Origin: Chiloscyllium plagiosum
Lineage: Eukaryota
Length of the DNA stretch: 64,000 nt
Assembly (NCBI RefSeq): GCF_004010195.1
Contig: NC_057753.1
Span: forward strand, 630,330-694,329
Direction: 5' to 3'
The notes beneath the pieces are model-generated. The model was not told the origin of the DNA, did no database searches, and saw only the letters and a list, made by a program, of their open reading frames with translations. Positions 1 through 61,608 of the stretch are shown here, piece after piece. Every line of letters starts with the position of its first letter. Position 1 is the first letter of the stretch. Both the position numbers and the translations under genes were made by a program.

Positions 1-218
1 ACAGCACAGCAGGTCAGGCAGCATCTAGGGAACAGAAGATTCGACGTTTCGGGCACATGCCCTTCTTCAGGAATGAGCAGAGAGTGTTCAGCCCAAGTCC
101 CTCCTCCCTACCTTTTATCTTCTCCTGCTGAACACTCTCTGCTCATTCCTGAAGAAGGGCATGTGCCCGAAACGTCGAATCTTCTGTTCCCTAGATGCTG
201 CCTGACCTGCTGTGCTGT
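1..218. repeat. Perfect 92-bp inverted repeat (arms 1-92 and 127-218, 34-bp spacer) made of a Penelope-like element terminus
   Basis: The reverse complement of 1-92 equals 127-218 base for base; the left arm is cut by the window edge. The same terminus family recurs at 3726, 10747, 19618, 38249 and 61460. Confidence 0.9.
145..180 (+). ncRNA. Minimal type I hammerhead ribozyme motif (PLE-associated); mirror copy at 39-74 on the - strand
   Basis: ATTC-CTGAAGA-A-GGGCA(TG)TGCCC-GAAA-CGTC-GAAT: CUGANGA core, stem II, GAAA, palindromic ACGU mini stem III, GUC cleavage triplet ending at 176, and stem I ATTC/GAAT. Confidence 0.75.
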
Positions 219-242
219 TCCAGCAATAAAGTTTCAGCTTAC

Positions 243-2119: not shown

Positions 2120-4020
2120 ATTTTTATTTGTTCATTTGTTGAATATATGTGTTCCTGGGTGGCCAGCATTTATTTCCAATACCTATTGCCCGTTAGGAGT
2201 TGTTGGTGAACAGCCATCTTGAACGACAGCTGTGCACCTACTGTAGGTTTATCCACAATGCCATACGGGAGGGAATTCCAGGATTTTGTACCAACAACAG
2301 TGAAGGAACAGATCTATACTTCCAAGTCAGATTGATGAATGGCTGGCAGGGGATTTGAATGTGGTGGTCTTCCCATATCCTTGTACTTCCAGACCGAAAT
2401 GGTGGTGGGTTTGGAGGATACTGTCTGAAGTTTTTTGGCGAATTTCCACAGTGCACCTTGAGGATAGTATACTCTGCAGGTACTGAGTGTTGGTAGTGAA
2501 GCGAGTGGATGCTTCAGGTTTTGGTGACAATCAAGCAGGTTGCTTTGTTCTGGATGATGCCCAGCTTCTTGAGTGTCGTCGGGGCTGTACCTTGTCAGGC
2601 AAGTGTAGAGTACTTCATCACACTGCTGACCTGCGCCTTGTAGATTCTGAATAGGCTTTGAGGAGTCAGAGGTGAGCGACGTTCCGCAATATTCTTAGCC
2701 TTTGACCCGCTGTTGTATCAACTATGCTCATGGGGTGAATCCAGTTGAGTTTCTGGTCAATGATAACCCCAACAATATTAATGATGGGAGATATATTGAT
2801 GGCAACAGCATTGAATGTCAAGAGGCAGTGATTATATTGTCTTTTACTGGTGATGGTCATTGCCTTGCATTTGTGTGATGCGAATGTTTCTTCACAACTG
2901 TCAGCTCAGACTGTAATTTTTTCCAGATGTTATTGTATTTGAAGATGGAATGCTTCAGCATTTGAAGAGTCATGAATAGTTCGAAAGATGTTGCAATCAT
3001 CACGAACATCTCCACTTCTGGCCTAGTGATGGAGAGAAGGTCATTGATGAAGCAGCTGAAGATGTTTGGACCAAAGTACAGTACCCTGAGGAACCTTGCA
3101 GAATTGTCTTCAACTTGAGATGACTGATATTTCACAGCCACGAACATTTTCCTGTGTGTTCTGTATGACTTTATCCAGTGGAGAGTTTACCCCTTATTTA
3201 TTGAAAGTTTACTAATTCTCACTGATGACAAACCCGGTCGAATGCTGCTTTTAGTCATCGGCTGTCACTTTCACCATAACTCTGGAATTCAGCTGTTTTG
3301 CCCATTATTGAATCAAAGCCGGCATGAGATCAGGAGCTGAATGGCACTGGCTTATCCCAAACTGGGCATGATTGAACAGGTTTTTGTTGATCAGGTGCTA
3401 CTTGATTGCACGGTTGGTGGCACTTTCTATCACTTTACTAATGATCAAGAGATCACTGATGGGAGGATGATTGGCTGCATTGGATTTTTTAGCTTATTGT
3501 GTACAAGACATAGGTAGGCAATGTCTGCCAATGTCGAGTAGACGCCAGTGTTGTAACTGTACGGGAGCAGCGAGACTACGGAAGTGGCAAGTTGTGGAGC
3601 AGATGTCTTCAATACTATTGCCAGACTGTTTTCAGGGCCTGTAGCCTTTGCAGTATCCATTGTCTACAACCGTTTCTTAATATGACGTGGAGTGAATCGA
3701 ATTGGCTGGGGAACATTGGAACAGGAGAAAGTGAGGTCTGCAGATGCTGGAGATCAGAGCTGAAAATGTGTGGCTGAAAAAGCGCAGCAGGTCAGGCAAC
3801 ATCCAGGGAACAGGAGAATCGACGTTTCGGGCATAAGCCCTTCTTCAGGAAGCCGAAACGTCGATTCTCCTGTTCCCTGGATGCTGCCTGACCTGCTGCG
3901 CTTTTCCAGCAACACATTTTCAGAACATTGGAACAGGCCAAATGAATCATCCACAAAGCCCTCCTATCTGAAGGCTTTGTGAAAACTTTAGCCTTATCTT
4001 TTGCTCCGATGTGCGAAATA
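2120..4020 (-). mobile_element. CR1/L2-group non-LTR retrotransposon, degenerate RT to 3' end, interrupted at 3726-3922
   Basis: ORF remnants DTAKATGPENSLAIVLKTSAPQLA...YSYNTGVY, FGPNIFSCFINDLLS and GVIIDQKLNW are typical RT/C-terminal segments. Confidence 0.75.
3726..3922. mobile_element. Fold-back PLE-terminus insertion with 15-bp TSD
   Basis: GAACATTGGAACAGG at 3711-3725 and 3923-3937; inverted arms at ~3760-3830 and 3853-3923; hammerhead core on the - strand at ~3817-3852. Confidence 0.85.
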
Positions 4021-10429: not shown

Positions 10430-12600
10430 GAGTCATATTTTCGTGTTGAAGACAATCTCCTTTTCGCTTTCCATCTTTTGCCTTGAAACTGTACCACCCG
10501 TTTATTGCCTCTTCTACTCACGGAAACATGTACCTTGCGAGCCATTCTATATTTGTCCCGCATAATCTTCGACAAGTCAACAATGATATTTCCCAATCTT
10601 CGCTGATCTAAAGAAAGCAACAGCAGTATATTCAAACTTTTGTTGCAGCTTACTTCCATCAACTCAGGCTGCAAGCTCATTAATCTCCTCAGCAACTTTG
10701 CTCGCGCAATCAGTATATTGCCACAACCTGGTGACTACCACTTCATGGAGAAAGTGAGGACTGCAGATGCTGGAGATCAGAGCTGAAAATGTGTTGCTGG
10801 AAAAGCGCAGCAGATCAGGCAGCATCCAAGGAACAGGAGAATCGACGTTTCGGGCATAAGCCCTTCTTCAGGACTACCACTTCATACCGATCTCAAACTG
10901 TGGTCTGACTAATGATTTGTACATTTCCAAAGTAACCGATTCCTCAACCAACAAAAGCAAATGTTCGTTATTCCTTCTTAACTATGTTATTTACTTGCAC
11001 AACAAAGTATGCCTAACTTTCCATAGTTTCCATGGTGATAACATTCATGGAATAATATCTTGCTTCGTTCACCATTCCTAAGTGCATAACACTTCAATTT
11101 TCGCCATGGAATTCCATTTACTGTTGGTCTGCATACCGTCAAGTTCTTTTAAACCCTTTTACTGTGATCGTGATGAATGGTAGAGTAGGTTCAAATGTCC
11201 GAATGGCCTCCTACTCTTCTTATTTTCAATATTCACATACTCGCTAAATTAAAAAAAAAACATGAGTAATTAATGTACACTAACCACATCACAGACCCCA
11301 GCATTGTGAAGCCTCAATGGAAACAGAATTCGCGTCACAGAAGGATCCTGCTTCCCTCATCTTGAATTTTGATACAACGTACCAATTGGCCATAGATTCC
11401 ATGGTGTCTTACTCTCTTGACATGTAGGCCATTAATGAACTCATCAAACTTTTAGCTAAAGGCATCAAGCACTTCTTCAGAAACCTGATTGACGTTTTAA
11501 AAATCTCAACTGTGAACATTGGTTTAACAAATCCATGCTGAATCTCCGTCATCAATCCATGACTCTTCAAATACAAACGTGTTCTTTCACTTCAAATCCT
11601 TTCGAATACATTCATTAGAACTGCTGCTGGACGATAGTCCTGTAGGTTTTCTGGCGATCCATTTCTTAATTTTATTTTCAAATGATGTGCCGAATTTAGA
11701 AGTACGCGATTCTCCTGAGACTTCACCGGTGGCCAGAGAGGATTCGATCCCTACTGGCAACGCCTGTGATATCTCTTCCCTGGTCTATTTCAATTTCTTC
11801 AAATAAGCTTCCCTCAGCTTTCTGGATTTATCCAAATAGGAGGCTTTTTAATCCCAGTAAACTGTTTTCTGTCTCTGTCTCTCCCCTCTTTCCTGGACAT
11901 ACACACATTCTGAGCTTTTGTCATTCTTATTAGCTTACTTCACTTCAAATGATATTATATTTTCTCAACCGTGATATCTCTACTTATTTCAGCGGTTTCA
12001 ATTGTTAAGACCATTGAGGTTTTATTGAGGATAGTGCTCATGACTTGCATTTGCGTGCACAGATTGTATGTATGTTCTGTGTTCGCTCCTACTGATTCCC
12101 AAGCTATTTCCATGCTCCATATATTTCTCTTCAATTTTCTACTTTCCTTCTAAATTCTTCCTCTGCACTTCTCTGACTCTGGGTACACTGTCGTATTCAG
12201 ACCTGGGTCTCTGCATTTGTTCATTTTTATTAAAAATCCTCAAGTTAGTAACTCTTGACATTAAATGTTATCCTTTCTTCGAGGTCATCGCTTGATTTTA
12301 TGGGAACATATTTGGTCTGAACTTCTGCTATTTTCTTCTTGACGACTCCTCGAGTTCTGACGACTTGATCTGCAAGTATTTCTCCCAGTGGACATCGACC
12401 AATTTGCATTTTTGTTATTAATTACCTAGCCAGATGTCAAGTGCTCCTATTCTCAGGCAGTCTTCGATATTTTTCCTTTACTATCCAAAATCGAACTGGG
12501 TTATGTTTATTATCTCAACATTGCTCATTTGCAAATATAACTTACCAATGTCTTCCCATATTCTTCTGTTTTGCGAGTGAACCTGTCAAGCTTCCTCATT
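10430..12600 (-). mobile_element. CR1 LINE ORF2, heavily decayed
   Basis: LLSLDQRRLGNIIVDLSKIMRDKYR resembles CR1 LFSLEQRRLRGDLIEVYKIMRG; scattered similarity continues to about 12.6 kb; boundaries approximate. Confidence 0.55.
10747..10871 (-). mobile_element. 125-bp truncated PLE terminus with 14-bp TSD, starting at a hammerhead core
   Basis: GACTACCACTTCAT at 10733-10746 and 10872-10885; the minus strand reads CTGAAGAAGGGCTTATGCCCGAAACGTCGATT at the truncation end. Confidence 0.9.
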
Positions 12601-19617: not shown

Positions 19618-19732
19618 CATGGAAATGTGTTGCTGGAAAAGCGCAGCAGGTCAGGCAGCATCTAGGGAACAGGAGAATCGACGTTTCGGGCATTAGCCCT
19701 TCTCCAGCATCTCCAGACCTCACTTTCTCCTC
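19618..19732. mobile_element. PLE-terminus insertion with internal inversion and 12-bp TSD
   Basis: CTTTGTTAAAGT at 19606-19617 and 19733-19744; the terminal ~30 bp is inverted relative to the rest. Confidence 0.85.
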
Positions 19733-26629: not shown

Positions 26630-29000
26630 AGAAATATTCATTCAGTGTCTTTCCCATCTCGTGCAATTCCACACACAGTGGAACGAATTAATCTTGAAGT
26701 CGCCCTATTCTCTCTCTACTTATTCATTTCACCTTAATTTATTTTTGCAGTCTTTTTGGATTCTCCTTAAGTGTATTTGCCAAAACTATTCAATGTCCCC
26801 CTTTCCCCTTCTCATTTCCCTCTTCAGTACACTTCTACTGGACTTATACTGCTTTAAGGGTTCACTTGATCCCAGTTGTCTATACATTCCAGGTGCCTCC
26901 TACTTTTTCTTCATTGGAGCGTCAATTTCTCTCGTCATCCAGTACTCCCTACATGTACCAGCCTTGACGTTCCCAGTATTAGGAACATATTGTCTCTGGA
27001 CTCTCGTCACCTCTGTTCCTCCGTTTTTGATGGTCTTCACTTTTTCTGACCCCCATTCACTGAGAATAACCTCTACTAATCGGCTTTTGAATATTTTTAC
27101 CTAAAACCATCAAAATCGGCCTTAATACGATTTCCATTGCTTTAAATCAGTTCGATAAGTTTGCATCTGGAAATAAGCGAGGACTGTAGATGATGAACCG
27201 TCAGAGTTGAAACATCTGGCGCTGGAAATTCGCAACCAGCCAGGCAGCATCCGAGCAGGAGGATAATCGACCTTTTGGTGATTAGCCATTCTTCAGTCTT
27301 GATGAAAGTCGTATGACCGAAACCTCGAATATTCTACTCCTCGTATGCTGCCTGATCTGCTGTGCTTTTCCAGCGCCACACCCGATAATTTTCCATAACT
27401 ATTTTAAAAGCAATATAATTATGATCACCAGTTCCAAAGTTCTTCCTTATTGATAACTCAATCGCTTGTCCCGCCTTCCGCCCAAGATGGGTCAAATTTT
27501 GCTCCTTCTCTCCTAGGTTAATCCACATACTGAATAAGAAATGTTTCTTGAACTCACTTAGCAAATTCATCTCCATCCAAGACCTTCACACGATAGACTT
27601 CATAGTTCACGTTTGGAAGTTAAAGTACCCCATTACAACCCTATTATTTGTATAGACATCTTAGATCTCCTGAAAATAAAAATCTCTTCTCAATTTCTCG
27701 CTGATCATTACAGGCCTAAATTACAAGCTAATAAGTGGACAAACCCTTCCATATTTCTCAAATTCCACCCAAAGACATTCATTGGTGTTCTTCTGGAATA
27801 ACCTCCCCAAATGCATCTGTAATGTTTTCCTTAACCATAAATACCACTTGATCTCCTCTCTTATCCCACCAGTTATCCTTCCCATAGCATCTATACCCCA
27901 GTACATGAAACTACCAGTGCAGCCATTCCCTGAGCTACGTTTATGTGATGTCTTTGATATTCCTGTCCCATGCTCCCAATCATGATCTCAGTTTATCTGA
28001 GTTACCTTTCAGGCCTCTTGCATCGAGATAAATTAAGTTTAATTTATCAGTCTTTCATAGTTCTCTGCCTTGCTTTTGCCTGCTTTTAATATTTTAGTTG
28101 CCCCTGTTCTCAACTGCACCAGCCTCAGACTTATCTCTTTGCTCACTATCTCTTTTGATTCCCATCGAGTTGTCTCACTTCCTGATTAGTATAAAGCCTT
28201 GGAAGTGGCACTGGCAAATCTCCCCGCCAGGATATTGTCCCTCTTCCAATTCTGATACAAACTATCCTTCTTATTCGGGTCGCCCTCCCCCAGAGGTGAT
28301 CCTAATGATCAAAATGTGCCAAACCCTGCCCCCGCAACAACTCATTCCTCTACTCTATTCTTCACCCCTACTGTCACTAACATGTAGAACCAGAAGTAAT
28401 TCAGATGTCGTGCCTCTTTTGAATTTTTAAAAATATTTCTGACTAGTTTCCTTAAATTCTCCTGACAGAATTGCATCCCTTTCTGTTCCTATGTCGTTGT
28501 GTACAGCGACCTCCTGCTGGTCCCTCTCCCCTTTGAGAATGTTCTGCACCGTCTCTGATAGATTCTTGACCTTGGCACCAGGGAGGGAACACGCATTCTG
28601 ATATCTTGCTCTCTGCTGCAAAACTGTGCATTTCTGCTCCTGACTATAACGTCCCCGGGCGCAATTTCTTGGAAACAGACACATCATTCATTTGCAATAG
28701 AATCAGTCTTGTTTGGCTGTCAATGCTGCCTCATTCTGAGAGCCCATCACCCCTTTAATTTTGCAGATACTACATACTTAGTTAAGATTGGGAAAGATAC
28801 AGGAGACCCCTGCACTCCGTGCCTACTGGTCCTACTTTTTCTAGAGGTAGCCCATTAACGTGATTGTCTGCATTTTTCTATATTCTGAAGCTGTCATTCA
28901 TCACACCCTCAGGTTCCTGTAAATTCTTCTTGCCTCTAACTGACGCTCCATCTGATCCATGCAATCCGATAGCATTTGTAATCAAGCATGCTTCTTGTGG
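26630..29000 (-). mobile_element. CR1 5' half (ORF1 esterase-like plus start of ORF2), degenerate
   Basis: CSLPGAKVKNLSETVQNILKGERDQQEV..HNDIG (ORF1) and FGTGDHNYIAFKIVME (APE end). Confidence 0.8.
27167..27382. mobile_element. Older fold-back PLE terminus with degraded 14-bp TSD
   Basis: CGATAAGTTTGCAT at 27153-27166 versus CGATAATTTTCCAT at 27383-27396; diverged inverted arms. Confidence 0.7.
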
Positions 29001-31958: not shown

Positions 31959-34142
31959 AATAGACAATAGACAATAGGTGCAGGAGTAGGCCATTCTGAC
32001 CTTCGAGCCTGCACCACCATTCATTATGATCATGGCTGATCATCCTCAATCAGTATCCTGTTCCTGCCTTATCTCCATAACCCTTGATTCCACTATCCTT
32101 GAGAGCTCTATCCAACTCTTTCTTAAACGAATCGAGAGACTGGGCCTCCACTCTCTTCTGGGGCAGAGCATTCCACATACCCACCACTCTCTGGGTGAAG
32201 AAGTTTCTCCTCATCTCTGTCCTAAATGGCCTACCCCTTATTTTTAAGCTGTGTCCTCTGGTTCGGGACTCACCCATCAGCGGAAACATGTTTCCTGCCT
32301 CCAGAGTGTCCAATCCTTTAATAATCTTATACGTCTCAGTCAGATCCCCTCTCAGTATTCTAAACTCAAGGGTATACAAGCCCAGTCGCTCCAATCCTTC
32401 AACATAAGATAGTCCCGCCATTCCAGGAATTGACCTCGTGAACCTACGCTGCACTCCCTCAATAGCCAGAATGTCTTTCCTCAAATTTGTAGACCAGAAC
32501 TGCACACAATATTTCAGGTGCGGTCTCACCAGGGCCCTGTACAGCTGCAGAAGAACCTCTTTGCTTCTATACTCAATCCCTCCTGTTATGAAGACAAGCA
32601 TGCTATTAGCTTTCTTCACTATCTGCTGTACTTGCATGCTTGCCTTCATTGACTGGTGTACAAGAACACCCAGATCTCTTTGTACTGCTCCTTTACCTAA
32701 CTTGACTACATTTAGGTAGTAATCTGCCTTCCTGTTCTTGCCACCAAAGTGGATAACCATACATTTATCCATATTAATCTGCATCTGCCATGCATTTGTC
32801 CACTCACCTAACCTGTCCATGTCACCCTGTAATCTCCTAACATCCTCCTCACATTTCACCCTGCCACCCAGCTTTGTATTATCAGCAAATTTGCTAATGT
32901 TACTATTAATACCATCTTCTATATCATTAATATATATTGCAAAAAGCTGCGGTCCCAGCACTGATCCTTGCGGTACCCCACTGGTCACCGCCTGCTATNN
33001 NNNNNNNNNNNNNNNNNNNNNNNNNNNNNNNNNNNNNNNNNNNNNNNNNNNNNNNNNNNNNNNNNNNNNNNNNNNNNNNNNNNNNNNNNNNNNNNNNNNN
33101 NNNNNNNNNNNNNNNNNNNNNNNNNNNNNNNNNNNNNNNNNNNNNNNNNNNNNNNNNNNNNNNNNNNNNNNNNNNNNNNNNNNNNNNNNNNNNNNNNNNN
33201 NNNNNNNNNNNNNNNNNNNNNNNNNNNNNNNNNNNNNNNNNNNNNNNNNNNNNNNNNNNNNNNNNNNNNNNNNNNNNNNNNNNNNNNNNNNNNNNNNNNN
33301 NNNNNNNNNNNNNNNNNNNNNNNNNNNNNNNNNNNNNNNNNNNNNNNNNNNNNNNNNNNNNNNNNNNNNNNNNNNNNNNNNNNNNNNNNNNNNNNNNNNN
33401 NNNNNNNNNNNNNNNNNNNNNNNNNNNNNNNNNNNNNNNNNNNNNNNNNNNNNNNNNNNNNNNNNNNNNNNNNNNNNNNNNNNNNNNNNNNNNNCAACAC
33501 CAATTCCTGGCAAATATAAATTCCCTTCTGTTCAGGTCCTTCAGCCACTGTTACCTCAGGGAGATTGCTTGTGTCTTCCCCAGTGAACACCGATCTGAAG
33601 TACCAATTCAATTCTTCTGCCATTTCTTTGTTCCCCATAATATACTCCCCTGTTTCTGTCTTCAAGGGCCCAATTTTATTCTTAACCATGTTTTTCCCCT
33701 TTCACATACCTAAAAAAGCTTTTACTATCCTCCTTTATACTTTTGGCCAGTTTACCTTCGTACCTCATTTTTTTCTCTGCGTATTTCCTTCTTAATAAAA
33801 CTGTGTTGTTCTTTAAAAGCTTCCCAGTGCTCCGTTTTCCCACTCATCCTTGCCATGTTATACTTTTTCTCTTTTGACTTTATATGTTTCTTAACTTCCT
33901 TCGTCAGCCACAGCCACCCCTGCCTCCTCATAGGATCTTTCTTCCTTTTTGGAATAAACTGATCCTGCATCTTCTGCATTATACACAGAAATATCTGCCA
34001 TTGTTCCTCCACTGTCATCCCTGCTAAGGTATTTCACCATTGAACTTTGGCCAGCTCCTCCCTCATAGCTCCACAGTTCCCTTTATTCAACTGAAATATT
34101 GTCACTACTGATTGTACCCTCTCCCTTTCAAATTGCAGATTA
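31959..34142 (-). mobile_element. Young 5'-truncated CR1 LINE, ORF2 RT largely open
   Basis: 312-aa ORF 32050-32988 with SGVPQGSVLGP, KFADNTK, DLGV and RPHLKYCVQFW; upstream ORF pieces to 34018 with one frameshift near 33770; (TAGACAA)n tail; spans the gap. Confidence 0.95.
32999..33494. other. Assembly gap (496 N)
   Basis: Run of N. Confidence 1.
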
Positions 34143-35925: not shown

Positions 35926-36869
35926 ATTTCATAAATTTTCATAAATTAGAGCTTCTGCGAAACCTCTCAAACTGGTACGCACAGGAAACAAAAGGCAGCA
36001 AACACTCGAGTGCAAACATTTCCAATTTTGCTTTCAAGTTAACGACCATTGTGCTTTGCAATAAATAATCTCTGACCCTTCTTTTGCTGAGCCTTGAACG
36101 TAGGATGTTGCTGAATGAAATTGAGAAAGTGCCTTCACCAGATGCCGGATGAAGAAAAAGATGGTCTCCCTAAATTGTTACATCAAAGACTGTCCGGGGA
36201 TGAATGATAGCCTTTCTCTCAAAGCTGCACGAGAGACAGTGAGGAATATAGATGTCGGAGAGTCAGATTAGAAAGTGTGGCGCTGGAAAAATAGTTCAGG
36301 CAGCATCCAAAGAGCAGGAGAGTCGAAGTCTTGGGTATAAGCCTTTCATTAGGAATGTCAAGGCCACGCCCTTAGAATTAAAAGCCCTCATTGCTTTATT
36401 CGTTCAAATACAAACTTCCAGCTTACGTTGTATGGATAGTGCCTGTTTATAAAGTTATTTTTCCCTGAAACTAACAGACAATGTTGGGAATGATTGGCAG
36501 CTTCTGTTGCTAGTAAAGGAGCTCAGGTTTAAGGCTTTCATGGTTTGTCACAGTTAACATGGTACAAAATGGTAGTAGGTGTCTCTCACGCAATCACGTT
36601 CAAGCACTTTTCAAATGTTATTTATTGATATTAACTCATAAGGTTGGCACTACTGCAAGTTTTGTGCAGAATCCGGAACCCTGAAATTTCACATTCAGTT
36701 CGGAACAGATCACAGTTTGACACGAATGTCGGAGTGGAAACCCTGTTACAGAATTTCTCATTGTCCAGTTGTAAAGGAACAAACACTGGAGGAAGTCAAC
36801 AGGTCTGACTCATCTTCGAGTTTTGCAGAAGAGTCACACTGGATTTTAAGCGTTGTCTCTGTTTCTGTC

Positions 36870-37177: not shown

Positions 37178-38248
37178 TGTTTCTGTCTCTTCAGATGCTG
37201 TCAGTTAACATTCCCAGTCTAGTAATCTTTTATCAAATATAAATTTGGTCGTTTTAATGCTGCGAGGTGACACTGCATGAATGAGACTGCAACTGAATAT
37301 CTGCAACTGGTAACATTACCAATTGGAAGTTCTCCTTAAAACCACTCACCATTCCGACTTGGACATGTGTTGCTATTTCTTCAATATTGCAGAGCCAATA
37401 CCCTGGAGTTGTCTCCCTAATGGCATTATATGTCTACCCTCAATACATTGACTGTATGGTTCAAGATGGTAGCTCACAACTATCCCTCCCAGTTATGGGC
37501 GAATATCACCCCCTAAAAAGAGTTCAAGAACATAGCCTATATCTGAGCTTCTTATTTTATAGGCAGATGTGAAGTGACTGTTCCAGGGGTAATGCAGCTG
37601 TTAACTTGATTCGTTTTACAAAACCAAAATTAACTTTAAAACAAAATTGAAAACACAAACAAAAGAAAAGAGAGTTTAGAATAACTTAACTGCTGGAAAA
37701 CTGATCAAATTCAACATAGCAACTTAATTAAGAAACTGCTGCAATCAAACAACGTTCCATAAACACACCCGTTTCAAAAGGGAAATTCAAACACGGGTCC
37801 TTACCAGTCTGAGGGAACAACTTTCAGAGAGTTCAGAGTGGTAAGTCAACTAGGAATCATCTTCTGGTGTTTGGAACGCTGCTACACAGCAACAGTTTCT
37901 CTCTGTTACTGCGAAACTAAAGTGGTAATAAGCTTGAACTGGGAGAATTGGTAACTTCCTTGTCATTGTTGCACTAGGCTTTTCCAAGACATTTTGGAAC
38001 CTCTGTCTTTACGAAATCATTGAAAAGAAAACAAGGACAAAATAACCTTTTTAAAGAGACAACATTGTCACACCTCCATCTTCTCAAGGAGAAACAAGGA
38101 TGGGCACTAAGCACTGGATCCAGACAGTGATATCCATATCACATGTAGTGACTTGTTCCCTCCGCCCCCTCCCCAGTACTGTAACCCCACGAACACTGTC
38201 AGAATCAGCAATAACATTTGAGATAAACACTGAGTACTGCACTCTCCA

Positions 38249-39188
38249 GGTAAAAACAATGACTGCAGATGCTGGAAACCAGATTCTGGATTAGAGTGGT
38301 GCTGGAAAAGCGCAGCATTTCAGGCAGCATCCGAGGAGCAGGAAAAGCGACGTTTCGGGCAAAAGCCCTTCATCAGGAATACAGGCAAATGAGAGGATGG
38401 AATGGGTGGGGAGAAAGTAGCATAGAGTACAATAGGTGAATGGGGTGGGAATGGAGGTGATAGGTCGGGGAGAAGGGTGGGGAAATGTAACAAAGAGTAC
38501 AATGGGTGGATGGGGGTGAGATAAAGGTGAAGAGCAGGATTAAAATCAACTAGGTAAAAACAACCTATACCTTCATCCCCATTTAAATTCACCTATTGTA
38601 CTCTATGCTGCGTTCTCCCCACCTCCACCCTCCTCTCATTTATCTCTCCACCCTTCATGCACTCTGCCTTTATTCCTGATGAAGGGCTTCTGCCCTAAAC
38701 GTCGATTTCCTGCTCCTCGGATGCTGCCTGAACTGCTGTGCTTTTCTAGCACCATTCTAATCCAGAATCTGGTTTCCAGCATCTGCAGTCTTTGTTTTTA
38801 CCCAGTTGATTTTAACCCGACTGTGAATTCTCTTGCAAGGATGCCTGTCTTGAAAAGTTTTCCTCCTCTCTCTACAAGAATCTCAGGGAGTCCCTCTCCC
38901 ACTGCAACTCCCAGGTCATTTCCTCTGCCCTGAAGCTCTTCACCTTCATCCCACCCCCATACATCCATTGTACTCTTTGCTACCTTCCCTCACCCTCCTC
39001 CCTGACCTATCACCTTCATCCCCACCCCCATTCACTTATTGTACTTTATGCTACTTTCTCTCCACCCCCACCCTCTTCTCATTTATCCCTCCACCCTTCA
39101 GGCACTCTGTCTGTATTCCTGATGAAAGGCTTTTGCCCGAAACGTCGATTTTCATGCTCCTCGGATGCTGCCTGAACTGCTATGATTT
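38249..39188. mobile_element. 940-bp non-autonomous PLE-derived insertion: one inverted and about 1.5 tandem units, three hammerhead motifs, 14-bp TSD
   Basis: TACTGCACTCTCCA at 38235-38248 and 39189-39202; hammerheads at 38346-38380 (-), 38672-38707 (+, GAAA changed to TAAA) and 39115-39150 (+). Confidence 0.9.
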
Positions 39189-41059
39189 TACTGCACTCTC
39201 CAACTTCATTCTTTCTGAAAAAAAAACCAGTCACGGTAACTGCAATTTAGGTTGGGAATTAGTGCATGCCTTGTTGCCGATGCCCTTATCCTCTGAACGA
39301 TTAAAAAAAAGGCCAGGAACTTGCTTCCAGGGAAAACTTATTATGAAGACAAATGCTCCATTTTCTATGAACTATGCAATTTGAAGATAGGTTCATGAGT
39401 GCAAGGAATGAGGGGCAGGTTTTTTCGACTAACCAAGAGACAATAAAGACAATTAATCATCTAGATATGATTTGCTCAACCACTGAATGTGTTCATTCTT
39501 TGTCTTCCCCAGTGAGCAGTGAAGGCTGGGCCGTACCTTTTTTGCATTAAGGAGGAAATCATGGTTTGGGAGAGCAGTCTGCAATTGGATTTAGGCTGGA
39601 ATCAAATGAGCCGTTGATTTATCACATGGTGGAACAGTTTCAAAGGACCAAATAGCCTACTGCTGCTCCTATTTCTTATTCCCTTATTTGGGATTACACA
39701 AATTCAGTCAGTTTGCTGATAAGGTTTCCCGGCAAGGCGGATGAAGGTATTAGTGTTGATCATGTGTACAAGGGAAAAGAGCAAGAATTACTGACTAGGC
39801 GTCTACGGACAATTGACGTTCACAAAATTAAGTATGCAGCACGAAATGTTTGCAAACTCCCCAATAACATACGAAGGAGACGGTTGTGTTGACGAATTGG
39901 TTCATTAAAAAAAAGGTGTAGAAAATATTCTTTTTTTACTCAGCTCTCGGGGCTCTTGCTCAATTTGATATAAATGCGCTGACTTGGATGTATCAGTAGA
40001 GGGCGCAGTTTATAGACAGGCCCAGTTGTCTCATTTTCGACTGTCAGCTGGAAGGACGAAAACGAGCTGGTATTCTTTTCATTCATTCAAGAGACAGTGA
40101 GAGTCACGAAGTAAGCAAATATTGTATTGCACATCCGCAGCTGAGATGGTGTCTATGATCCACTGCAGTCTCTGATCTTGGCAGGGACAGCCACAGTGCG
40201 AAAGTCAGTCAAAGACTGTACCCTTCAGGAATGAGCAACATTGCAGGAGCTGCGATATAACTCCAAGTCAAGACGGTGAGGGGCTTGGAAGTAACTTGAA
40301 TATAGATGTGTTCTCATGCATCTTCTGCCCCCATCATTAGAACTTGTAGAGGTCATTTGTAAACTGTATAGTTTTAAAATGTCTTAATGGGAAGGATGGA
40401 CACAAGAACATTACAGCAAAGCAAAGGTTTCGTACCCCAGTTGGCTGAATGCTTGGTTTCTGATGCAGAGAGAACAGTGTGGGTTCAATACCATTGGTAA
40501 CTTTGTGTTTACTGTCAGGGAGGATGCAATCGGGAATCTGAACGAAGAAAGAAAGAGGACTGAAAGGAAATATATTTGACACACATAAGTTGCACAACCA
40601 AGAAAGGTCGTATGTTATTTGAGAACAAGGGATGTGAGGTGAGATTTATGGAAATTCTGAACACAGTGTTTCAAGTCTAATGTTTTGAAGGAGCTTACAG
40701 AAGGGATGGCGGACCACAAATGTGAGCCTCTTATTTAGGATCGTGGAGGGGGCGTGCAGCAAACACCCGAATATCAGTAACGTCAACTGGAAGCGTTGTC
40801 ACAGGCCAAGTAAAGAACACTTGTACAGAGTATAGTTAAAAACCAACATTTGTTGTTGACTTGGTAATGACCGCATCTGAATTTCCAACGGCATTTGACC
40901 TTTTGCAAGGGCTGGAATCTCACAAAATCGGTTGGAATAGACCATTAACAGTAAAGTGTATTGTGGTATCATAGCTATAACCCTAACCCTATTGCTTTAT
41001 TGATACAAGATTTATTTTGTCCTGTTAAAAACACCGAGGACACCAATCATTTAAAGATA

Positions 41060-45244: not shown

Positions 45245-45447
45245 CTTCTCAGATGCTGGAGATCAGGATCGAGAAGTGTGGTGCTGGCAAAGCACAGCCA
45301 GTCTGGCAACCTAAGAGAAGCAGGAGAGTCTATTATTCGAATATGAGCACTTAATCAGATGAAGAGCTCATCCTCGAAACGTCAACTCTCCTGTTCCTCG
45401 AATTCTGCCTGACCGGCTGCGCTTTTGCATCACCACACTTTCTGACT
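45245..45447. mobile_element. Old fold-back PLE terminus
   Basis: Diverged inverted arms around gatgaagagctcatcctcgaaacgtc. Confidence 0.65.
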
Positions 45448-61459: not shown

Positions 61460-61608
61460 GTGTCGAGAGTGTGGTGCTGGAAAAGCACAGCAAGTCAGGC
61501 AGCATCCGACGATTCTCCTGCTTCTCGGATGCTGCATGACCTGTTTTGCTTTTTCCAGCCCCACACTGTCGACTCTGATTTCCAGCATCTGCACTCCACA
61601 CTTTCTCT
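61460..61608. mobile_element. Fold-back PLE terminus lacking the hammerhead, inside a decayed - strand CR1 (about 61300-63200)
   Basis: Inverted arms at ~61463-61509 and 61526-61573; flanked by TTCTGTAGATT (61449-61459) and TTCTGTACATT (61609-61619). Confidence 0.75.

What the first reader, a model, noticed from the sequence alone, without database searches (positions are those of the whole stretch)
38249..39188. Retrozyme-like tandem mini-element: hammerhead-delimited 443-nt unit plus a 304-nt terminally redundant inverted unit
Seen: one TSD-bounded insertion with two + strand hammerheads whose GUC sites (38703, 39146) are 443 nt apart. The unit is terminus + short ORF-start-like piece + 3' region, with no RT. 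The inverted arm is a shorter variant with GGTAAAAACAA at both ends (38249-38259 and 38553-38563, period 304). Both orientations contain the same GCTCTTCACCTT join. Known: non-LTR retrozymes are small tandem hammerhead repeats that yield circular RNAs and are thought to be mobilised by PLEs. Inference: the template was a small internally deleted, possibly circular RNA, which would make this a shark non-autonomous ribozyme element. The 38676 copy is mutated (TAAA) and stem I is weak.
Basis: partly seen in the sequence, partly recalled or inferred. Interest (0 to 1): 0.7.

Follow-up and report, generated by a model that had tools for sequence, protein, structure and literature searches.

The report
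Gutted Penelope copy with recurrent shortcut
This 940-base insertion is an old, decayed copy of a common Penelope-type jumping gene with its protein-coding middle skipped; in the sample examined nearly all copies that keep the gene's start carry such a shortcut, likely made by the element's own copying enzyme jumping along its RNA, and nothing found shows a circular-RNA retrozyme family.

Summary
The anatomy is real: a 14-bp target duplication, three minimal hammerheads, cut sites 443 nt apart, and the same join in both arms. All parts come from an abundant Penelope-like element (PLE; 11,197 exact hammerhead copies). The layout, two direct pLTRs plus one inverted, is the published PLE layout. 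The 304-nt unit is unique to this locus. The 443-nt join recurs at 8 other places, but these are not one family (AU p=5e-6), and none has the 443-nt unit. Both direct hammerheads are mutated in conserved positions.

The larger result is population-wide. 86 of 98 sampled ORF-start copies skip from the ORF start (74 within 170 nt) to the 3' end. Breakpoints have hot spots reused across subfamilies. One source lineage yielded 11 joins in 18 daughters, and small families inherit joins with a mutated left hammerhead, which indicates linear templates.

Best reading: reverse-transcriptase template jumps make these shortcuts. This locus is likely a twice-primed copy of one already-joined linear RNA. 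The scan noted similar deleted PLE copies on other DNA before.

The parts
38235..38248 (+). Left target-site duplication (14 bp)
   Evidence: D14; TSDs of 13-16 bp are common at other copies
38249..38563 (-). Inverted arm (cDNA 1, inferred). In sense: last 11 nt of the upstream pLTR tail, ORF +1..+16, skip of about 114 nt, GCTCTTCA, join, 3' region with a 24-nt deletion, hammerhead, full tail ending at the canonical +126 site
   Evidence: its ORF-skip join is unique in the genome
38349..38376 (-). Minimal type I hammerhead, core intact; position 1.2 A->C weakens helix I
38524..38535 (-). Second copy of the GCTCTTCA|CCTT join (break 38528/38527)
38249..38283 (-). PLE 'tail' (about 34 nt) between the two canonical right-end sites, +92 and +126
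   Evidence: right ends of other copies cluster at about +90-95 and +124-128; tail described in PMC11167929
38564..38802 (+). Left direct pLTR, 5'-truncated at -112 from the hammerhead core, with full tail
38676..38703 (+). Minimal hammerhead with G12->U at 38696 (predicted dead)
38803..38942 (+). First 140 nt after the tail: PLE ORF start (ATG 38841, frameshifted by a 1-nt loss; reads KFSSSLYKNLRESLSHCNSQVISSALKLF)
   Evidence: matches the start of near-full-length copies L102 and L106
38940..38942 (+). Join: ORF +140 to 3' region -176; TCA is shared by both parents (3-nt microhomology within an imperfect CCCTGA..TCA..CC match)
38943..39118 (+). 3' region of the element with two about 70-nt subrepeats (same type as L025)
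   Evidence: (D2, D6)
39119..39146 (+). Minimal hammerhead with G10.1->A at 39127, breaking the G10.1-C11.1 pair (predicted impaired)
39147..39188 (+). Right end stopping at about +67 to +70, short of both canonical sites; 6 of the next 8 target letters match the element (second priming by microhomology, inferred)
39189..39202 (+). Right target-site duplication (14 bp)
   Evidence: D14

Best explanation
This is one old insertion of an internally deleted Penelope-like element, likely copied twice (once from each end of the cut target) from a linear RNA that already carried the ORF-start-to-3'-end shortcut, a shortcut that the element's reverse transcriptase likely makes again and again by template jumping. 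Shown: all parts are PLE-derived; the layout and TSD are PLE-typical; such joins are the rule among ORF-start copies, have hot spots and recur across subfamilies; joined copies can be re-inserted with their join. Inferred: RT starts internally at the tail, stalls or runs off a short way upstream, and lands on the ORF-start segment just downstream of a tail (the region the protein needs in vitro in the Anolis PLE). It then copies ORF start, tail and hammerhead again. A joined copy that sits upstream of another ORF start is transcribed and re-mobilised in trans. Here cDNA 1 started at +126 and skipped twice more, cDNA 2 started at about +68 by microhomology, and the two were sealed head to head. 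The hammerheads are passengers and do not delimit the unit.
For: Layout equals the 'typical Penelope structure' with direct and inverted pLTRs, tail and TSD (PMC3846280). 86 of 98 ORF-start loci are joined; 74 of 86 break within ORF +170; overlap is mostly 0-4 nt. Hot spots lie at ORF +139 (10 of 86), 3' -74..-80 (19 of 86) and -3..-10 (13 of 86). The +139/-76 join has 33 exact copies spread over many subfamilies (AU p=2.6e-6); the window-type join is likewise polyphyletic (9 rows, AU p=4.7e-6). In a lineage marked by an A9->G left hammerhead, 18 of 30 fetched copies are joined, with 11 different joins; all 18 have the mutant core on the left and the normal core on the right. Identical joins with private variants and different right flanks show inheritance: L293/302/315/321 and L299/304/305. 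Successive different joins occur within one insertion (L224, L256, L320). The three window arms are equally diverged, 11-12% pairwise. RT initiation is internal and hammerhead cleavage is not needed for insertion in vitro (PMC11167929).
Against: No source copy or sibling with the 443-nt unit was found among 9 places matching the join with up to 2 mismatches, so the pre-existing joined source is inferred, not seen. Template jumping was not observed; it is read from breakpoints. In some loci the left pLTR starts exactly at the join's 3' breakpoint (9 of 51 vs 1.9 expected; 4 of 23 vs 1.3), and L105, L150 and L280 repeat one join in direct tandem. Both fit a self-closing fragment or circle better. 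Left/right pLTR distinctness could not be shown for the window itself (one weak site). The samples favour young copies on two or three contigs, and many flanks read N.
Confidence: 0.62

Rival explanations
1. The join was made within this insertion. A short protein-protected RNA fragment with fixed ends (5' end at -176, 3' end at ORF +140) was closed on itself, by end-to-end RT jumps or by ligation at the join, and was copied by both RT subunits. The circle, if any, closes at the join and not at the hammerhead.
For: The left copy starts at the join's 3' breakpoint more often than chance: 9 of 51, 0 of 20,000 shuffles; 3 of 37 outside the -16..0 hot zone, p=0.016; replication 4 of 23, p=0.014. 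The same join appears twice in 3 of 9 multi-join loci not selected for a join (L075, L105, L280) against 0.55% by chance. Two joins start exactly at the hammerhead cut site, +28 (L042, L074). No sibling was found for the window.
Against: The left copy is longer than the fragment model allows in 3 of 51 and 3 of 23 loci, plus L247. All four replication matches fall in the -2..-14 zone where solo copies also stop. Six loci have different joins in their arms. Inheritance from linear sources is directly seen and explains shared joins without new assumptions.
Confidence: 0.22
2. Non-LTR retrozyme: a 443-nt monomer cut out by dimeric hammerheads, circularised, and reverse-transcribed round the circle by PLE RT, forming a non-autonomous family.
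For: Two direct hammerheads one unit apart; no coding capacity; a long TSD. It would meet the geometric screen of the 2026 preprint (two consecutive units with hammerheads) if the cores were intact. Circular PLE intermediates were proposed in PMC4209133. Young tandem units exist elsewhere (L105).
Against: Neither arm goes more than once through the join. No family was found. The hammerheads are of the minimal PLE type with low in vitro activity, and both direct cores are mutated. Inherited joins elsewhere keep a mutated left hammerhead and unlike pLTRs. In the preprint 8 of 9 tested dimers did not cleave.
Confidence: 0.09
3. A full-length insertion lost its middle later by microhomology-mediated DNA deletion, and the join reached the inverted arm by fold-back copying or gene conversion.
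For: Microhomology-mediated deletions are described for Penelope copies (PMC3846280); there is a 3-nt microhomology at this join.
Against: Breakpoints cluster in the first 170 nt of a body of about 2.7 kb and at single-base hot spots with 0-1 nt homology. The arms are no more alike round the join than elsewhere (87-95%). Joins are inherited by independent insertions.
Confidence: 0.07

Closest known systems
Endonuclease-bearing Penelope-like elements: typical insertion (Pen2a_Av and its deleted derivative, PMC3846280; PAc, PMC11167929)
   Same: Two direct pLTRs plus an adjacent inverted pLTR, a 30-40 nt tail on one end, a TSD, a minimal hammerhead in the pLTR, two right-end sites about 34 nt apart, and internally deleted derivatives.
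   Different: The passages I read treat deletions as occasional decay. Here the ORF-start-to-3' join is the majority state of ORF-start copies (86 of 98), has hot spots and is partly inherited.
SIDEs, short internally deleted elements of R2/R1 (PMC3414825; CR1 SIDE PMC6740152 seen as listing only)
   Same: 5' and 3' ends of an autonomous retroelement joined, ribozyme retained, mobilised in trans; a template jump was proposed as one origin.
   Different: SIDEs are rare, single-origin, long-lived families. Here joins arise repeatedly and the families seen are small (2-4 copies among 30 fetched).
Metazoan non-LTR retrozymes (PMC7229834; bioRxiv 10.64898/2026.07.22.740005)
   Same: 150-450 bp hammerhead-bearing non-coding unit, long TSD, PLE kinship; the preprint derives retrozymes from PLE pLTRs and reports them in one chondrichthyan.
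   Different: Retrozymes have canonical, efficiently cleaving hammerheads, multi-copy tandem families and abundant circRNA. This locus has minimal, mutated hammerheads, 1.4 direct units, no family and no RNA evidence.
L1 twin priming and R2 template jumping (twin priming recalled; R2 jumps from PMC3414825 passages)
   Same: An inversion with a microhomology-primed second end; RT moving between templates with little homology.
   Different: Initiation here is internal at a tail and not at poly(A), and the jump lands on the element's own ORF start.

Membership tests
EN+ Penelope-like element (derivative) | Parent ORF with PLE-type RT | tested here: met
   The ORF start continues for about 2.7 kb to the same 3' end in L102 and L106. 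Pfam RVT_1 E=4.4e-4 on a partial natural stretch, below the curated cut-off.
EN+ Penelope-like element (derivative) | C-terminal GIY-YIG endonuclease in the parent | tested here: inconclusive
   No Pfam or PDB hit for a frameshifted 147-aa piece. A VIY...YIGETG motif is visible in it (motif recalled).
EN+ Penelope-like element (derivative) | pLTRs direct and inverted, optional 30-40 nt tail, TSD | tested here: met
EN+ Penelope-like element (derivative) | Minimal type I hammerhead in the pLTR | tested here: met
   against the description in PMC4209133
EN+ Penelope-like element (derivative) | Clade (Poseidon or Neptune) | not tested
   No RT tree was built. A Cys-rich stretch before the nuclease motif suggests Neptune (recalled).
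Non-LTR retrozyme | Non-coding unit of 150-450 bp with a type I hammerhead | tested here: met
   443-nt unit, ORF remnant frameshifted
Non-LTR retrozyme | Intact hammerheads in at least two consecutive tandem units | tested here: not met
   G12->U at 38696 and G10.1->A at 39127; only 1.4 direct units. The ancestral state was probably intact.
Non-LTR retrozyme | Canonical hammerhead (6-bp helix I, tertiary contacts) | tested here: not met
   Helix I is 2 bp + U-U + 1 bp; no Rfam hit at E<=5
Non-LTR retrozyme | Multi-copy family by descent | tested here: not met
   304 join 1 place; 443-type join 9 places, not one clade
Non-LTR retrozyme | Self-cleavage and accumulation of circular RNA | not testable with these tools
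   Only poly(A) single-cell raw reads and contigs were available
SIDE-type non-autonomous element | Ends of an autonomous element joined, ORF lost | tested here: met
SIDE-type non-autonomous element | The deleted form itself re-transposes | tested here: inconclusive
   For this locus only the shared join in both arms points to it. It is shown for other joins in the genome.

The most novel reading that the evidence does not exclude
Penelope-type RT routinely jumps back onto its own protein-bound ORF-start RNA and can loop repeatedly on a short fixed-ended fragment, in the manner of telomerase or DRT2 repeat synthesis. Most insertions that contain the ORF start would then be freshly made mini-elements, and this process would be the nursery from which non-LTR retrozymes arise; young tandem units such as the 265-nt L105 unit would be retrozymes at birth.
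Probability: 0.25. Interest if true: 0.72.

Novelty: new variant of a known kind. Interest (0 to 1): 0.4.

Why it matters
The locus alone is decayed PLE debris. The population pattern bears on two open questions: how PLE insertions get their tandem and inverted layouts, and how PLEs give rise to non-autonomous hammerhead repeats. It gives exact donor and acceptor sites (3' -76, -3..-10, +28; ORF +139) that can be tested in the published in vitro PLE assay. It also warns that two hammerheads a few hundred bases apart in such genomes usually mark a shortcut copy and not a circRNA element.

Tried and rejected
Rfam scan: no hammerhead family at E<=5. RNA: no RNA holder was listed on record. On a young pLTR-ORF stretch, raw poly(A) single-cell reads of one run gave 864 reads on both strands, 95% running on into unlike sequence, with no place where many molecules begin or end; the second raw run gave none. 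Contigs laid on the window gave no piece spanning it. None of this tests circles. An apparent cluster of left ends at +91..+98 was largely an edge of N stretches and was dropped. A YpA-cleavage or initiator rule for breakpoints was considered, not tested. Independence of the two hot spots was not rejected (Fisher p=0.10). A strict self-closing-fragment model for all joins was rejected by loci whose left pLTR is longer than the join allows and differs from the right one. The family hypothesis for the 304 unit was rejected. Pfam and PDB searches for the nuclease were empty. Two scripts stopped with errors part-way; right-end and TSD statements rest on the 81 rows of 100 that one search printed. 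Literature searches returned no paper that, from listings and the passages read, describes this systematic join in PLEs. Subscription papers and the preprint's supplements (which list its chondrichthyan retrozyme families) could not be seen.

Full report
OBSERVATION. A 14-bp duplication (38235-48, 39189-202) bounds 940 bases. Plus-strand hammerhead cores start at 38676 and 39119, with cut sites 443 nt apart, and a third core lies on the minus strand at 38376. The join GCTCTTCA|CCTT is in both arms. Rfam reports no hammerhead. The motif matches the minimal PLE hammerhead described in PMC4209133 (parts 1-2 of 4 read). The left direct core has G12->U and the right has lost the G10.1-C11.1 pair. 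The three arms differ by 11-12% pairwise, which fits one old event.

WHAT IT IS MADE OF. Every piece belongs to one abundant element. An exact 34-mer of its hammerhead occurs 11,197 times and an ORF-start 31-mer 1,384 times. Near-full copies L102 and L106 run about 2.7 kb from the same ORF start to the same 3' end. A natural stretch scores weakly as RT (Pfam RVT_1 E=4.4e-4, below cut-off); the nuclease was not confirmed by search. Right ends of copies cluster at about +92 and +126 from the hammerhead core (81 of 100 rows printed). This is the PLE tail that PMC11167929 ties to two internal RT start sites (parts 1-2 of 4 read). Two direct pLTRs plus an inverted one with tail and TSD is the 'typical Penelope structure' (PMC3846280, passages; also PMC8557442, passages). 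The species and PLE clade were not determined.

IS IT A FAMILY? The inverted arm's extra join occurs only here, with up to 2 mismatches allowed. That arm is the 443 unit minus two further skips, so 304 is not an independent unit. The main join has 6 exact matches and 9 with up to 2 mismatches, the window included. The others join to the single or last subrepeat and carry markers of different subfamilies. On a 62-row tree of the shared 166-nt pLTR segment, 9 window-type rows need 9 changes and are rejected as one clade (AU p=4.7e-6). In that tree the window is represented by its left pLTR, L208 was left out for lacking the segment, and L118 was added by hand reading. The tree is shallow and many forks are weak.

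THE JOIN IS THE RULE. I took the first 100 listed ORF-start matches, which are 98 loci on two contigs, biased to young copies. In 86 the ORF piece is followed directly by a 3' piece (79 by script, 7 set by hand from printed sequence, and one scripted value corrected). The other 12 are four long copies, three masked by N, one joined into the RT region, one interrupted and three ending at the target. 74 of 86 break within ORF +170; overlaps are mostly 0-4 nt; the median unit is 326 nt. Hot spots lie at ORF +139 and at 3' -74..-80 and -3..-10. The +139/-76 join has 33 exact copies; 25 usable rows are rejected as a clade (AU p=2.6e-6). Among 30 hammerhead-anchored copies only 2 show such a join, and about 7 stop at -5..-8, so joins begin where cDNA often ends. 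A second sample anchored at the tail-ORF junction gave 31 joined of 51 new anchors.

MADE ANEW AND SOMETIMES INHERITED. A young lineage carries A9->G in its left hammerhead (102 exact copies). Of 30 fetched, 18 are joined, with 11 different joins, and all 18 have the mutant core left and the normal core right. Some joins are shared, with private variants and different right flanks: L293/302/315/321 and L299/304/305 (L310/320 and L303/307 look similar, part of that output was cut). Several right ends run a few bases into ORF-start sequence. Joined copies therefore re-transpose, and they do so from linear templates: a hammerhead-to-hammerhead circle would need the left ribozyme and would not keep two different pLTRs. 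Single insertions also hold successive different joins (L224, L256, L320).

EVIDENCE THAT PULLS THE OTHER WAY. The left pLTR starts at the join's 3' breakpoint in 9 of 51 unmasked loci (1.9 expected; 0 of 20,000 shuffles) and in 3 of 37 outside the -16..0 zone (p=0.016). The replication gave 4 of 23 (p=0.014), all in the hot zone. I dropped three rows there: two tandems and L247, which later proved to be a real counter-example. Left copies longer than the breakpoint number 3 of 51 and 3 of 23. Among multi-join loci the same join is reused in L075, L105 and L280 (not selected for a join), in L150 and L162 (selected) and in the window; six loci have different joins. Chance sharing is 17 of 3081 pairs. 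L105, L150 and L280 repeat a join in direct tandem. A minority of templates may therefore be short fixed-ended RNAs copied end to end, or circles. L042 and L074 start exactly at the hammerhead cut site.

HOW THIS LOCUS MOST LIKELY FORMED (inferred). A linear transcript pLTR-ORF(140)|-176-pLTR-tail was primed twice at a 14-nt staggered cut. One cDNA began at the canonical +126 site, crossed the join, skipped twice more and stopped 11 nt into the upstream tail. The other began at about +68 by microhomology with the target, crossed the join and stopped at -112. The two were sealed head to head. Each arm crosses the join once, so no circle or multimer is needed. The Anolis protein cleaves and extends both strands, needs RNA downstream of the start site, and does not need hammerhead cleavage in vitro. 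That the jump lands on the protein-bound segment is my inference. Two-sided priming is modelled on L1 twin priming (recalled).

COMPARISON. It works like an R2 SIDE (PMC3414825, passages) inside a PLE layout. It fails three tested retrozyme features: intact tandem cores, canonical hammerhead, and family by descent (PMC7229834, passages). The 2026 preprint (parts 1-3 of 5 read) already argues that animal retrozymes derive from PLE pLTRs and counts any two consecutive hammerhead units; its supplements were closed. PMC6155905 and PMC6765202 were seen as passages. Searches surfaced no description of the systematic, hot-spotted join. RNA data could not test circles. Earlier notes of this scan read similar loci as deleted PLE copies.

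VERDICT. The feature is real, the locus is ordinary decayed debris, and it is not a retrozyme family. The recurrent shortcut is an apparently undescribed and testable trait of this PLE. Interest 0.40.

Noticed in passing
L105 2200-2900, L110, L111: Very young 265-nt unit with an intact hammerhead; the same join three times at one locus (tandem plus inverted, 14-bp TSD) and at two other loci. Best retrozyme-like candidate seen.
   Followed up: partly
L292-L321: Lineage whose left pLTR hammerhead has A9->G yet has about 100 copies; an active source does not seem to need that ribozyme.
   Followed up: partly
L293, L302, L315, L321: Rearranged PLE array (inverted ORF fragment plus joined unit) that has re-inserted at four places as a unit.
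   Followed up: partly
L234, L243: Minisatellite with a unit of roughly 34 nt seeded from the PLE ORF start, at two loci on one contig.
   Followed up: no
L042, L074; L230 left end: Breakpoints or left ends exactly at the predicted hammerhead cut site (+28), a possible trace of cleavage in vivo.
   Followed up: partly
L172, L183, L188, L192, L193, L199 and others: Solo pLTR copies often start 5-8 nt upstream of the hammerhead core.
   Followed up: partly
L241, L260, L268, L279, L235: Insertions whose right end lies 11-30 nt past the tail, inside the ORF start.
   Followed up: no
window 3-225, 3738-3915, 10759-10877, 19627-19702, 27217-27379, 36274-36356, 45250-45439, 61468-61596: At least eight further pLTR stubs of older subfamilies, several as head-to-head palindromes.
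   Followed up: no
window 32053-32994 (-): 314-codon open stretch that looks like a CR1-type LINE reverse transcriptase (label recalled).
   Followed up: no
ORF +128..+141 (window 38931-38942): The ORF-side hot spot lies in a short palindrome, TGAAG-CT-CTTCA.
   Followed up: no
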